NCBI RefSeq assembly: GCF_041248615.1
Contig: NZ_CP158426.1
Strand: one strand, 5' to 3'
DNA: 64,000 nucleotides
From: Escherichia coli
Lineage (GTDB): Bacteria; Pseudomonadota; Gammaproteobacteria; Enterobacterales; Enterobacteriaceae
Shown: piece after piece, positions 61,201 through 64,000 of the stretch
Position numbering within the stretch: position 1 is the first letter of the stretch
Layout: each line of letters opens with the position of its first letter
Made by a program: the position numbers and the translations under genes
The notes under the pieces: generated by a model
What the model was told of the DNA's origin: nothing
Database searches by the model: none
Seen by the model: the letters and a program-made list of their open reading frames with translations, nothing else

Positions 61201-61381
61201 GGTAGAGCGTGACTACCTGAATGGTCGGATAGTCCACTTCCGGCAGCGCCGAAACGGGCAGGGCTCGATAACCGATAATCCCGGCGAGTAAGATCGCCAC
61301 CATCAGCAGCGTGGTGGCGACAGGACGCATAATAAACAGGCGCGACGGGCCGCCTGTGCTGCTCGGGGGTAACACCTGCAT
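58259..61381 (-). CDS. mdtB: RND multidrug efflux pump subunit MdtB
   Basis: 1040-aa RND permease ORF. Confidence 0.95.
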
Positions 61382-62628
61382 CAGGAGCGTGCTCCTTTTT
61401 TCGCGTATTCGCGGCTGGTGGCTTTCTCTTCCGGAGTGGTGGCGCTCTGGGCTTCCACTACTTCCACTTTCGCCCCTTCGGTCAGGCGATCAATGCCGTC
61501 TGTCACTACGCGGTCGCCCGCAGAAATACCTGCGCGGATCACCACTTTCTGACTGTCCTGAATGCCCGGCGTCACCAGATGTTTGCTGACCTTGTTTTCG
61601 CTATTCAGCACCCAGACAAAATGGCCTTCGTTGCCCATTTGCAGAGCGGCGGTGGGGATCACTACGGCGTTTTGTTCGGTGTCGACTAACATACGCGCGT
61701 TAACAAACTGATTGGGAAACAGCGCATCATCCTGATTATTAAAGCGTGCTTTCACTTTAATCGTACCGGTAGTGGCATCGATTTGGTTATCGAGACTTAA
61801 CAGCGTGCCTTCACTTAATTTCTTCGAGTTGGTGCGATCCCAGGCTTCAACAACCAGCGGTTTTCCGGCTTTTTGCGCCTGTACTACGGTAGCGATATCG
61901 CTTTCCGGCAGGGTAAAGAGCAAATCGATAGGATGCGTCTGGGTGATCACCACAATCCCGGTGGTATCACCACTGGAGATTTGGTTACCAACATCAACCT
62001 GCTTGAGACCAACGCGACCATCGATTGGTGCGGTGATGCGGCTCCAGTCGAGCTGCAGCTGCGCGCTGGCGACGCTTGCTTCATCAGCCTTAATGGTGCC
62101 TTCGGTTTCACTGACCAGCGCCTGTTGGGCATCCAGCTCCTGGCGGGAGACAAGATTGGTTTTTGCCAGTTGTTGATAACGCGCCAGGTCACGGCGGGCG
62201 TTGGCAAGCGTGGCTTTATCTTTTGCCAGTTGGCCCTGGGCTTGTGCTAATGCAACTTTGAACTGGCTTGGGTCAATTTCTGCCAGTAAATCGCCTGCTT
62301 TGACCTGCTGGCCTTCCTGGAAATGTAACGCCATCAGTTGACCGTCCACGCGGCTGCGCACCGTAACGGTATTAGCGGCGGTAATGGTGCCAAGCCCGGT
62401 GAGATAACGTGGCACAGCTTGTTCTACGGCAGTCGCCGCCTGAACCGGGGCTAATGGGCCGGCACGCATACCACGGCGACCACCCGCTGGCGATTGCTGC
62501 GCTTGTTTCGTCGCCCCTGGGGCTGCACTCTGGGAGTCATTGCGGCCTTGCCAGAACCAGAATGCGGCGATGGCGGCGATAACCAACACGATTACGATTA
62601 CCCAACGGGATTTATAACTGCCTTTCAT
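61381..62628 (-). CDS. mdtA: RND membrane fusion protein MdtA
   Basis: Start at [24 protein letters not shown] (415 aa); ORF track extends to 62775. Confidence 0.9.
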
Positions 62629-62681
62629 CGTTAAGAGTTTCTCTTCCTGAAACGTTTCACGGAATGATACTAGTGTAGCCA

Positions 62682-62699
62682 GCCAATAAGGGAGAAAAA
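62682..62699 (-). promoter_or_regulatory. BaeR box upstream of mdtA
   Basis: Minus-strand TTTTTCTCCCTTATTGGC matches the recalled BaeR-binding consensus; position relative to the mdtA start inferred. Confidence 0.5.
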
Positions 62700-62856
62700 T
62701 GGAGGAATTATGAAACACTGTCGGGAATCGTCTGAATGACGGGCACATTTGCGAGCACGCATCCAGTAATAACACATGAAACTATTTTATCTGCAAGTTA
62801 GCGATAGACTGCTTGCATGGCGAAAGGAGGTAAGCCGCCGTTTTCAGCGGGACGCT

Positions 62857-62999
62857 GAAACGGGAAAGCCCCTCCCGAGGAAGGGGCCTTAAATAAGGAA
62901 AGGGTCATGATGAAGCTACTCATCATCGTGGTGCTCTTAGTGATTAGCTACCCAGCATACTAAGACTACCAGGGCGGGGGAAACCCCGCTCTACCCTCA
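62857..62999 (-). ncRNA. sibB: Sib antisense sRNA, copy 1 (ends approximate)
   Basis: Minus-strand promoter TTGACA (63029-63034)-17 nt-TACTTT (63006-63011); terminator hairpin GCCCCTTCCTCGGGAGGGGC plus UUUCCCGUUU near 62860-62888; fully overlaps the ibs ORF. Confidence 0.65.
62907..62963 (+). CDS. ibsB: Ibs type I toxin peptide, copy 1 (MMKLLIIVVLLVISYPAY)
   Basis: 18-codon hydrophobic ORF with AGGAAAGGG SD; matches the Ibs peptide family. A/B assignment is approximate. Confidence 0.75.
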   Translation: MMKLLIIVVLLVISYPAY

Positions 63000-63184
63000 C
63001 TCCTGAAAGTATGCCTTCACGATAAGATTGTCAATCTGCAGGCTTTGCAGTCTGCGATCCTGCCAGCAAATATTCTTTGCGAGACGTTACGCAATAATCA
63101 CACTGGAAACTATTTTATCCGCAAGTCAGCGATAGACTGCATACAGGGCGAAAGGAGGTAAGCCGACGATTTCAGCGGGACGCT

Positions 63185-63327
63185 GAAACGGGAAAGCCCC
63201 TCCCGAGGAAGGGGCCTTAAATAAGGAAAGGGTCATGATGAAGATACTCATCATCGTGGTGCTCTTAGTGATTAGCTACCCAGCATACTAAGACTACCAG
63301 GGCGGGGGAAACCCCGCTCTACCCTCA
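63185..63327 (-). ncRNA. Sib antisense sRNA, copy 2 (ends approximate)
   Basis: Same promoter (TTGACA at 63357-63362) and terminator architecture, offset 328 bp from copy 1. Confidence 0.6.
63235..63291 (+). CDS. Ibs type I toxin peptide, copy 2 (MMKILIIVVLLVISYPAY)
   Basis: Identical to copy 1 except L4I; same SD context. Confidence 0.75.
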   Translation: MMKILIIVVLLVISYPAY

Positions 63328-63513
63328 CTCCTGAAAGTATGCCTTCACGATAAGATTGTCAATCCGCAGGCTTTGCAGTCTGCGATCCTGCCAGCAAATA
63401 TTCTTTGCGAGTCGTTACGCAATAATCACAGAGGAAACTATTTTGGTCACGCGTTAGCGATAGACTGCATTCAGGGCGAAAGGAGGTAAGCCGACGATTT
63501 CAGCGGGACGCTG

Positions 63514-63662
63514 AAACGGGAAACCCTCTCCCGGAGAAGAGGGCTTTTAATAAGGAAAGGGTTATGATGAAGCACGTCATCATACTGGAGATACTCTTAG
63601 TGATTAGCTTCCAGGCTTACTAAGAACACCAGGGGGAGGGAGAAACCTCTCCCTAACCCTCA
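63514..63662 (-). ncRNA. sibA: Sib antisense sRNA, copy 3 (ends approximate)
   Basis: Promoter TTGACA (63692-63697)-17 nt-TAATTT (63669-63674) on the minus strand; hairpin CCCTCTCCCGGAGAAGAGGG at 63524-63543. Confidence 0.6.
63564..63623 (+). CDS. ibsA: Ibs type I toxin peptide, copy 3 (MMKHVIILEILLVISFQAY)
   Basis: 19-codon ORF of IbsA type; contains a Glu codon (GAG) inside the hydrophobic stretch. Confidence 0.7.
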   Translation: MMKHVIILEILLVISFQAY

Positions 63663-63843
63663 CTCCTGAAATTATGTCACTCCGCCCTTAGTGTCAATCG
63701 ACGGCTCTCCGTTCTTGCGAGGCGAATAGCAAAATTTTCTGCGCCGCCGGGCCTAATTCTGAAAGTTTCTTCGTTTGCTCTTATTTCATTATTGCAATCG
63801 GTATGATACCGGGCCTCAATAATTCTCTAAGAAAGGATTTCTT

Positions 63844-64000
63844 ATGAGCGAACAAATCACGTTTGCCACCAGCGATTTTGCCAGTAACCCGGAACCACGT
63901 TGCCCCTGCATTTTGCTGCTGGATGTTTCTGGTTCTATGAACGGTAGACCTATTAATGAACTTAACGCCGGATTGGTTACCTTTCGCGATGAGCTGCTTG
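63844..64000 (+). CDS. yegL: 5' end of vWA-domain protein YegL (partial, runs off window)
   Basis: ATG at 63844 after AAAGGA SD; [41 protein letters not shown] (vWA MIDAS-like DxSxS). Confidence 0.7.

What the first reader, a model, noticed from the sequence alone, without database searches (positions are those of the whole stretch)
63564..63623. IbsA-type peptide copy carries a glutamate in the middle of its hydrophobic segment
Copy 3 translates to MMKHVIILEILLVISFQAY. A charged residue inside a membrane-inserting toxin helix is unexpected, and the codon is GAG where a single-base change would give GTG (Val). This may be a detoxifying substitution or a sequencing error.
Basis: partly seen in the sequence, partly recalled or inferred. 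Interest (0 to 1): 0.35.

Follow-up and report, generated by a model that had tools for sequence, protein, structure and literature searches.

The report
Rare natural Val-to-Glu allele of ibsA
The glutamate is real: it is a rare, inherited single-base variant (15 of 5,426 complete E. coli genomes) of the well-known 19-residue IbsA membrane toxin, not a sequencing error. It probably weakens one redundant toxin copy, so the finding is ordinary but offers a ready-made natural mutant.

Summary
Window 63564-63623 (+) translates to MMKHVIILEILLVISFQAY*, with codon 9 = GAG. It is the third unit of a three-copy ibs/Sib type I toxin-antitoxin array between mdtA and yegL in E. coli. The window is 100% identical to strain NRZ14408.

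The reference IbsA has Val (GTG) at codon 9. GTG occurs in 4,474 of 5,426 complete genomes and GAG in 15.

A sequencing error is excluded. Fourteen of the 15 carriers come from different countries, hosts and laboratories. They share an essentially identical 5-kb haplotype (ibsA-yegL-pphC-yegI-yegD) that is 2.2% from the nearest other haplotype. Their flanks are mosaic, which points to a single origin followed by recombination.

"Detoxifying" is plausible but untested:
- Position 9 is V/I/A in all 39 other 19-residue Ibs peptides surveyed across six genera.
- No acidic residue occurs in any of 47 peptides.
- Glu cuts the 10-residue hydrophobic run into 4+5 and costs about 3 kcal/mol of insertion energy.

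The same base is also the fifth pair of a conserved 6-bp stem in SibA and in ibsA mRNA (predicted cost about 4 kcal/mol). It lies outside the published target-recognition domains.

This is a known system, and the allele is already in RefSeq (WP_072146903.1). Interest is low.

The parts
63564..63623 (+). ibsA ORF, V9E allele (MMKHVIILEILLVISFQAY*). The SNP is A at 63589, the middle base of codon 9 (63588-63590).
   Evidence: Annotated as ibsA / WP_072146903.1 in identical RefSeq records. 18 of 19 residues match K-12 IbsA.
63518..63661 (-). SibA antitoxin RNA (144 nt), with ends placed by homology to K-12 sibA. It is fully antisense to ibsA. The SNP is SibA nt +73, U here and A in the reference.
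   Evidence: K-12 annotation, alignment A2 and the Rfam RF00113 hit at 63549-63697, 145.9 bits. Fold z-score -4.4.
63662..63697 (-). sibA promoter region: TTGACA at 63697-63692 and an extended -10 TGACATAAT ending at 63671. It is unchanged between the E and V haplotypes.
   Evidence: Read from the sequence and from Rfam model positions 1-30. The only differences from the nearest V haplotype are at 63446, 63589 and 63641. This is a consensus reading only; the simple promoter scan did not call it because the spacer is 15 nt.
63524..63543 (.). GC-rich hairpin. On the minus strand it is the SibA terminator stem. On the plus strand it sits in the ibsA 5' UTR just upstream of the ribosome-binding site AAGGAAAGGG (63552-63561).
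63585..63590 (.). 5' arm (ibsA-strand sense) of a 6-bp stem, CUGGAG here and CUGGUG in the reference. It pairs with CACCAG at 63627-63632. The mirror stem in SibA is nt 30-35 with nt 72-77. The SNP turns the fifth pair into A.A in the mRNA and U.U in SibA.
   Evidence: Folds. Pair conservation is U:A in 26/29, U.G in 1, C.A in 1, and U.U only here.
63627..63632 (.). 3' arm (CACCAG) of that stem, just after the ibsA stop codon.
63235..63291 (+). ibs copy 2, IbsB-type, MMKILIIVVLLVISYPAY* (WP_012767742.1). Its Sib RNA lies on the minus strand at 63220-63362.
62907..62963 (+). ibs copy 1, IbsB-type, MMKLLIIVVLLVISYPAY* (WP_001386901.1). Its Sib RNA lies on the minus strand at 62892-63034.
61381..62628 (-). 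mdtA, the left flank of the array.
63844..64000 (+). yegL (vWA-domain protein), the right flank, cut by the window end. It is the first gene of the 5-kb haplotype block that travels with the E allele.

Best explanation
Shown: this is a genuine, vertically and recombinationally inherited missense allele (GTG to GAG, Val9Glu) of the chromosomal type I toxin gene ibsA. It sits in the yegL-proximal unit of a three-unit ibs/Sib array of E. coli. The change arose once, on a distinctive ibsA-yegL-pphC-yegI-yegD haplotype, and is now found in about 0.3% of complete genomes. Everything else in the module is unchanged: the sibA promoter, SibA, the ibsA ribosome-binding site and start codon, and the other 18 residues.

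Inferred: the Glu most likely attenuates or abolishes the membrane toxicity of this one peptide. It places an ionisable residue at the centre of the only hydrophobic segment and cuts the 10-residue hydrophobic run into 4+5. The allele persists because IbsA is a redundant, weakly selected copy. Two intact IbsB-type units sit next to it. About 17% of E. coli genomes lack an ibsA-type copy. K-12 tolerates loss of SibA. Because SibA is encoded on the opposite strand, toxin-antitoxin complementarity is preserved automatically, so the module stays regulated but would deliver a blunted peptide.
For: Real allele:
- GAG is in 15/5,426 genomes and GTG in 4,474. These were counted with 55-mers in which every 28-base seed covers the SNP.
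- Carriers come from Japan, USA, Italy, Australia (a pygmy possum) and a German reference-centre isolate.
- All 11 carriers fetched at +/-10 kb have 0-1 SNP across about 5 kb from ibsA to yegD. Their flanks fall into three patterns of 10-40 SNP/kb.
- That 5-kb block is at least 99% identical in only 14 genomes, all carriers. The next haplotype is 97.8% identical.

Attenuation:
- Position 9 is V33/I5/A1 in 39 other 19-residue Ibs peptides from six genera, and no Asp or Glu occurs in any of 47 peptides.
- The longest hydrophobic run falls from 10 to 5 residues. Core Kyte-Doolittle GRAVY falls from 3.67 to 3.02.
- The review PMC8309996 summarises Mok et al. 2010: IbsC needs at least 10 hydrophobic residues, including those near the centre.

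Redundancy:
- 946 records have only an 80-90% match, meaning no ibsA-type copy.
- Han et al. [quoted passage not shown]

Intact regulation:
- Only three SNPs separate the E haplotype from the nearest V haplotype in 341 bp, and none lies in the sibA promoter or the ribosome-binding site.
Against: - No toxicity, membrane-insertion or expression data exist for this allele.
- Ibs toxicity is notoriously tolerant of sequence change. Ala at every position except 3 and 11 kept Salmonella IbsA active, including Ile9Ala. Even frameshifted IbsC stays toxic (PMC7192591).
- A protonated Glu is cheap to bury: on the Wimley-White octanol scale the core sums to -10.3 against -10.9 kcal/mol for Val.
- On the Hessa scale the core still sums to a negative insertion energy with Glu.
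- The haplotype shows no further decay, although with zero variation among carriers this says little.
- The primary mutagenesis paper (Mok 2010) could not be read.
Confidence: 0.6

Rival explanations
1. The substitution is functionally neutral. Glu9 is buried in its protonated form or is tolerated, the peptide still inserts and is as toxic as IbsA(V9) when derepressed, and the allele drifts as a neutral polymorphism.
For: - The family tolerates sequence change widely: the Ala scan and toxic frameshifted IbsC.
- A protonated Glu costs only about 0.6 kcal/mol relative to Val on the octanol scale.
- The Hessa core sum stays negative.
- The allele has persisted long enough to spread worldwide and for both flanks to recombine.
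Against: - Hydrophobic identity at position 9 is strict: 39/39 other homologues, with no acidic residue in 47 peptides. That argues that selection removes such changes.
- The reviews report a requirement for at least 10 hydrophobic residues including the centre.
Confidence: 0.25
2. The primary effect is on RNA rather than protein. The base change removes the fifth pair of the 6-bp stem that closes the large SibA loop carrying the TRD1-equivalent region, and of the mirror stem in ibsA mRNA. This would alter folding, stability or pairing kinetics of the toxin-antitoxin RNAs.
For: - Reverting only this base lowers the predicted minimum free energy by about 4 kcal/mol in SibA (-54.8 to -58.8) and in the ibsA mRNA segment (-70.3 to -74.4).
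- The pair is U:A in 26/29 IbsA-type homologues and becomes U.G in the only Ala9 variant.
- The stem covaries between Ibs subtypes: CUGGUG/CACCAG against CUGAUUG/CAAUCAG.
Against: - The base lies outside TRD1 (+46 to +68) and TRD2 (+99 to +115). It maps to SibC +74.
- Predicted accessibility of those regions and of the ribosome-binding site barely changes.
- Rfam annotates only the outer 4 bp.
- Conservation of the A in Sib is confounded by the need for a T in the second position of hydrophobic codons.
- Cis-encoded complementarity is unaffected.
Confidence: 0.07
3. The substitution changes or adds function. The buried Glu might drive helix-helix association, make insertion pH-dependent (neutral and inserting at acid pH), or change binding to a membrane target such as the Fo a/b subunits reported for Salmonella IbsA.
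For: - It is established that polar and ionisable residues can drive transmembrane helix association, and that acidic residues make peptide insertion pH-dependent (for example pHLIP). This is recalled, not tested here.
- Salmonella IbsA is reported to act by binding Fo subunits rather than by generic membrane damage.
- An ibsA mutant showed a pH-sensitive depolarisation phenotype.
Against: - Nothing in the sequence data points to positive selection on ibsA itself, because the allele hitch-hikes on a 5-kb block.
- Its frequency is 0.3%.
- No other Ibs peptide has an acidic residue.
- Glu9 has no charged partner at i+/-3 or i+/-4.
Confidence: 0.07
4. The A at 63589 is a sequencing or assembly error.
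For: It is a single-base difference from the common allele.
Against: The same base is present in 15 independent complete assemblies from different laboratories, and 14 of them share one essentially identical 5-kb haplotype seen in no other genome.
Confidence: 0.01

Closest known systems
IbsA/SibA of E. coli K-12 (b4667/b4436), a type I toxin-antitoxin pair between yegL and mdtA
   Same: It has the same locus and orientation relative to yegL. 18 of 19 residues match. SibA aligns over its full length with three differences including the SNP. It matches Rfam RF00113.
   Different: Residue 9 is Glu instead of Val. SibA nt +73 is U instead of A. The array here has three units (two IbsB-type plus IbsA) rather than two.
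IbsC/SibC of E. coli K-12, the experimentally dissected family member (Han 2010; Mok 2010)
   Same: Both have a 19-residue MMxxVIIL...S..AY peptide inside a cis-antisense RNA of about 140 nt, and the same stem-loop architecture. TRD1 and TRD2 map onto SibA by alignment.
   Different: It is a paralogue at another locus (fau-serA). Position 9 is Ile. SibC discriminates its cognate target strictly, whereas ibsA is the reported exception.
Salmonella Typhimurium IbsA (bioRxiv 10.1101/2025.05.26.656083)
   Same: It is a 19-residue Ibs toxin with a SibA antisense RNA and a hydrophobic residue at position 9 (Ile).
   Different: It starts MMHQ... and only H3A and L11A abolish its activity. It is reported to bind ATP synthase Fo a/b subunits. 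No charged substitution was tested.
Other natural Ibs copies with core-breaking residues (Citrobacter amalonaticus S646 Arg7; C. braakii Pro11; S. diarizonae Gly10/Pro13)
   Same: These are single radical substitutions inside the hydrophobic core of otherwise canonical Ibs peptides. They suggest occasional decay of copies in a multi-copy family.
   Different: They involve different positions and residues, and none is acidic. Each was seen in only one species-representative genome and was not followed up.

Membership tests
Ibs/Sib type I toxin-antitoxin family (Rfam RF00113 SIB_RNA; NCBI 'Ibs family toxin') | The antisense RNA matches the SIB_RNA covariance model above its gathering score. | tested here: met
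   145.9 bits against a gathering score of 56, E = 9.9e-32, full model 1-147, at 63549-63697 on the minus strand.
Ibs/Sib type I toxin-antitoxin family (Rfam RF00113 SIB_RNA; NCBI 'Ibs family toxin') | An 18-19-codon ORF lies entirely within, and antisense to, the Sib RNA and is preceded by the conserved AAGGAAAGGG ribosome-binding site. | tested here: met
   The ORF at 63564-63623 (+) lies inside SibA at 63518-63661 (-). The ribosome-binding site is at 63552-63561.
Ibs/Sib type I toxin-antitoxin family (Rfam RF00113 SIB_RNA; NCBI 'Ibs family toxin') | The peptide follows the family pattern: MM at 1-2, I6, L8, L12, S15 and Y19 invariant. | tested here: met
   All the positions that are invariant in 39 homologues are present.
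Ibs/Sib type I toxin-antitoxin family (Rfam RF00113 SIB_RNA; NCBI 'Ibs family toxin') | The hydrophobic core is uninterrupted (positions 5-14 all aliphatic). | tested here: not met
   Glu is at position 9. Position 9 is V/I/A in 39/39 others. The hydrophobic run is split from 10 residues to 4+5.
Ibs/Sib type I toxin-antitoxin family (Rfam RF00113 SIB_RNA; NCBI 'Ibs family toxin') | The peptide is toxic on overexpression and is repressed by its cognate Sib RNA. | not testable with these tools
   This needs an experiment. No data on this allele were found in the held literature.
ibsA orthologue (as opposed to another ibs paralogue) | It is syntenic with K-12 ibsA (the unit adjacent to yegL) and has the IbsA-specific residues K3 H4 ... 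F16 Q17. | tested here: met
   The order mdtA | ibsB-type x2 | ibsA | yegL matches K-12 yegL-ibsA-ibsB-mdtA. 18 of 19 residues are identical. RefSeq gives the gene name ibsA but the product name 'Ibs family toxin' rather than 'toxin IbsA'.

The most novel reading that the evidence does not exclude
Glu9 may turn IbsA into a conditionally active peptide. While the carboxylate is charged at neutral cytoplasmic pH, it would be kept out of the bilayer or kept from assembling. On acid stress or protonation it would insert or oligomerise. That would make it a natural pH-gated type I toxin riding on a haplotype spread by recombination.
Probability: 0.05. Interest if true: 0.5.

Novelty: already known. 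Interest (0 to 1): 0.15.

Why it matters
It matters little for genome interpretation. The locus is the textbook ibsA/SibA module, and RefSeq already catalogues and annotates the allele. Its modest value is as a ready-made natural experiment. It is a single, centrally placed charged substitution in a 19-residue toxin, with the antitoxin automatically co-mutated, present in strains that can be obtained. Comparing E9 with V9 would test two things directly: whether an unbroken hydrophobic core is required for Ibs toxicity, and whether the conserved stem at the base of the SibA recognition loop matters. It also shows that single radical substitutions occur in copies of this multi-copy type I toxin family.

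Tried and rejected
- The two key primary papers are not held: Mok et al. 2010 JBC and Fozo et al. 2008 Mol Microbiol. Their content is cited only through reviews and through Han 2010.
- The simple promoter and terminator scan gave nothing above shuffled expectation in the array, and it missed the sibA promoter because of its 15-nt spacer. The ibsA promoter and 5' end remain unplaced.
- My first base-pair tally used indices off by one. It was discarded and redone.
- A sequencing error was considered and rejected.
- I considered that the SNP disrupts Sib target recognition and rejected it. The SNP lies outside TRD1 and TRD2, and cis-encoding preserves complementarity.
- I did not determine the sequence type or phylogroup of the carriers, and I did not fetch the remaining four carriers. 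The fifteenth carrier (OZ547136) has the SNP but did not reach 99% identity over the 5-kb block. I did not examine it further.

Full report
**1. The observation**

Window 63564-63623 on the plus strand translates to MMKHVIILEILLVISFQAY*. Codon 9 is GAG at 63588-63590, and a T at 63589 would give GTG. The reverse frame has no ORF. The description is accurate.

**2. What the locus is**

Rfam's SIB_RNA model (RF00113) matches the minus strand three times: at 62892-63034, 63220-63362 and 63549-63697. Scores are 141-146 bits against a gathering score of 56.

Each match overlaps a short plus-strand ORF:
- 62907-62963 encodes MMKLLIIVVLLVISYPAY.
- 63235-63291 encodes MMKILIIVVLLVISYPAY.
- 63564-63623 is the finding.

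The three units are about 87% identical and repeat every 328-329 bp. To the left lie mdtB and mdtA on the minus strand, and to the right yegL begins at 63844.

This is the yegL-ibsA-ibsB-mdtA locus of E. coli K-12, read in the opposite orientation and with an extra IbsB-type unit. The last 25 kb of the window are 100% identical to E. coli NRZ14408 (NZ_LT599825.1). In that record the ORF is annotated as ibsA, WP_072146903.1, "type I toxin-antitoxin system Ibs family toxin". K-12 IbsA is MMKHVIILVILLVISFQAY, so the only peptide difference is Val9Glu.

**3. Is it an error?**

I searched 5,426 complete E. coli genomes with a 55-mer centred on the SNP. Every 28-base megablast seed in that query must contain the variant base.
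- The GAG version is found in 15 genomes.
- The GTG version is found in 4,474 genomes.
- Together these account for essentially all records with an ibsA-type unit: 4,471 records with at least 90% identity over 341 bp.
- A further 946 records have only an 80-90% match, which means they carry other paralogues only.

The carriers were sequenced by different groups. They come from human blood, urine and faeces, from a Tokyo isolate with no recorded source, and from an Australian pygmy possum.

Eleven carriers aligned over +/-10 kb show 0-1 SNP across about 5 kb, from ibsA through yegL, pphC and yegI to yegD. The mdtABCD flank and the alkA/dgcE flank fall into three different patterns with 10-40 SNP per kb. 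The 5-kb block is at least 99% identical in only 14 genomes, all of them carriers. The next best haplotype is 97.8% identical and carries Val.

The allele therefore arose once on a distinctive haplotype. Either the block has moved between backgrounds by homologous recombination, or its flanks have been replaced. A sequencing error is excluded. No Val version of this haplotype exists in the collection, so the age of the mutation along that 2.2% branch cannot be fixed.

**4. How unusual is Glu here?**

A pattern scan of one genome per species recovered Ibs units from Escherichia, Citrobacter, Kluyvera, Salmonella, Phytobacter and Pseudocitrobacter.
- Among 39 other 19-residue peptides, position 9 is Val in 33, Ile in 5 and Ala in 1.
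- Positions 6, 8 and 12 are invariant.
- No Asp or Glu occurs anywhere in 47 peptides.

A few copies carry other radical core changes: Arg7 in a Citrobacter amalonaticus genome, Pro11 in C. braakii, and Gly10 plus Pro13 in S. diarizonae. Single copies with a core-breaking change therefore do occur in this multi-copy family.

**5. Likely consequence for the peptide (inferred)**

Glu9 cuts the uninterrupted hydrophobic run from 10 residues to 4+5. It lowers the core Kyte-Doolittle GRAVY from 3.67 to 3.02. It raises the summed core insertion energy from about -4.5 to -1.5 kcal/mol on the Hessa biological scale (scale values are from memory). It has no charged partner at i+/-3 or i+/-4.

Reviews summarising Mok et al. 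2010 state that IbsC needs at least 10 hydrophobic residues, including those near the centre, and that the hydrophobic centre determines toxicity. Attenuation is therefore the most likely outcome.

Against this:
- A protonated Glu is nearly as cheap to bury as Val on the octanol scale.
- Ile9Ala and most other Ala substitutions leave Salmonella IbsA active.
- Even frameshifted IbsC remains toxic.

I put attenuation at about 0.6, neutrality at about 0.25, and altered function at about 0.07.

**6. Why it would persist**

IbsA looks like the most dispensable member of the family. SibA-deficient K-12 is viable, and ibsA expression in a deletion host had no effect on survival, possibly because other Sib RNAs cross-repress it (Han et al. 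2010). About one genome in six lacks an ibsA-type unit. Here two intact IbsB-type units sit beside it. An ibsA mutant does show reduced depolarisation after DNA damage at pH 5.2, so the gene is not inert.

**7. The RNA side**

SibA is encoded on the opposite strand, so the mutation is mirrored in the antitoxin (SibA nt +73, A to U) and complementarity is preserved. By alignment the position corresponds to SibC +74. That places it between TRD1 (+46 to +68) and TRD2 (+99 to +115) of Han et al., outside both.

It is, however, the fifth pair of a 6-bp stem, CUGGUG/CACCAG (SibA nt 30-35 with 72-77). This stem closes the large loop carrying the TRD1-equivalent region. The mirror stem in ibsA mRNA joins codons 8-9 to the sequence just after the stop codon.
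- Among 29 IbsA-type homologues the pair is U:A in 26 and U.G in the single Ala9 variant. It is U.U only here.
- The stem covaries between Ibs subtypes.
- Reverting this base alone improves the predicted minimum free energy by about 4 kcal/mol in both RNAs. It hardly changes the predicted accessibility of the recognition regions or of the ribosome-binding site.
- The conservation is confounded by the need for a T in the second position of hydrophobic codons.

I treat an RNA-level phenotype as a minor rival (about 0.07).

The other two differences from the nearest Val haplotype do not touch the sibA promoter, the ribosome-binding site or the start codon. One is at 63446, in the ibsA upstream region. 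The other is at 63641, in the first SibA hairpin.

**8. Comparison with what is known, and verdict**

The unit meets every sequence-level criterion for the Ibs/Sib family and for orthology with K-12 ibsA, except one: the unbroken hydrophobic core. Toxicity and repression cannot be tested here.

The system is textbook and the allele is already a RefSeq protein. I found no paper that discusses it.

The "sequencing error" option is wrong. The "detoxifying" option is reasonable but unproven.

Interest is low (0.15). The allele's value is as a natural point mutant for testing the hydrophobic-core requirement. The most novel reading not excluded is a pH-gated toxin, at about 5% probability.

Noticed in passing
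window 62640-63700; L016 (GMF065); L004 (K-12): The number of ibs/Sib units between mdtA and yegL varies between strains. There are three here and in most carriers, and two in K-12 and in carrier GMF065. The two IbsB-type copies here differ at residue 4 (Leu or Ile), and KE55 carries yet another copy-2 protein (WP_012767741.1).
   Followed up: partly
L015:10000-15000 (window 63561 onward, beyond the window end): A block of about 5 kb (ibsA-yegL-pphC-yegI-yegD) is essentially identical in 14 genomes and 2.2% from every other haplotype among 5,426 genomes. Both flanks are mosaic, with three patterns. NRZ14408 shares its upstream flank with GMF065 and KE55 and its downstream flank with the ST70/M114 group. 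This is a clear local recombination mosaic.
   Followed up: partly
L049 (Citrobacter amalonaticus S646), L047 (C. braakii ATCC 51113), L053 (S. enterica subsp. diarizonae): Other natural Ibs peptides carry radical core substitutions: MMKYVIRLVILLVISLPAY (Arg7), MMKQVIILVIPLVISLPAY (Pro11) and MMQQVIILIGLLPISFAAY (Gly10, Pro13). They may be decaying copies, or they may show that the core tolerates more than assumed.
   Followed up: no
window 63524-63543: One GC-rich hairpin reads as a terminator on both strands. It is the SibA terminator on the minus strand. On the plus strand it is followed by CTTTTAAT in the ibsA 5' UTR, immediately upstream of the ribosome-binding site, so it could attenuate or structure the toxin mRNA leader.
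   Followed up: no
L006-L016 and L018 versus L003/L017 and L004: The E haplotype and the Val-carrying control HCP5S3 lack yegJ, and pphC and yegI overlap by 4 bp. K-12 and strain 7/2 carry yegJ between pphC and yegI. This is a presence/absence polymorphism next to the array.
   Followed up: no
window 63446 and 63641: Two further SNPs distinguish the window's ibsA unit from the nearest Val haplotype. G63446 lies in the ibsA upstream region and is T in the second carrier group. A63641 lies in the loop or stem of the first SibA hairpin and is linked to the Glu allele in all three carrier sequences compared over this 341-bp unit (window, L001, L002).
   Followed up: partly
window 61381-62775 (-): The mechanical ORF list extends mdtA to a GTG start at 62775 (464 residues), which would run into the first ibs/Sib unit. 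RefSeq annotates the 415-residue form ending at 62628, which leaves the array intergenic.
   Followed up: no
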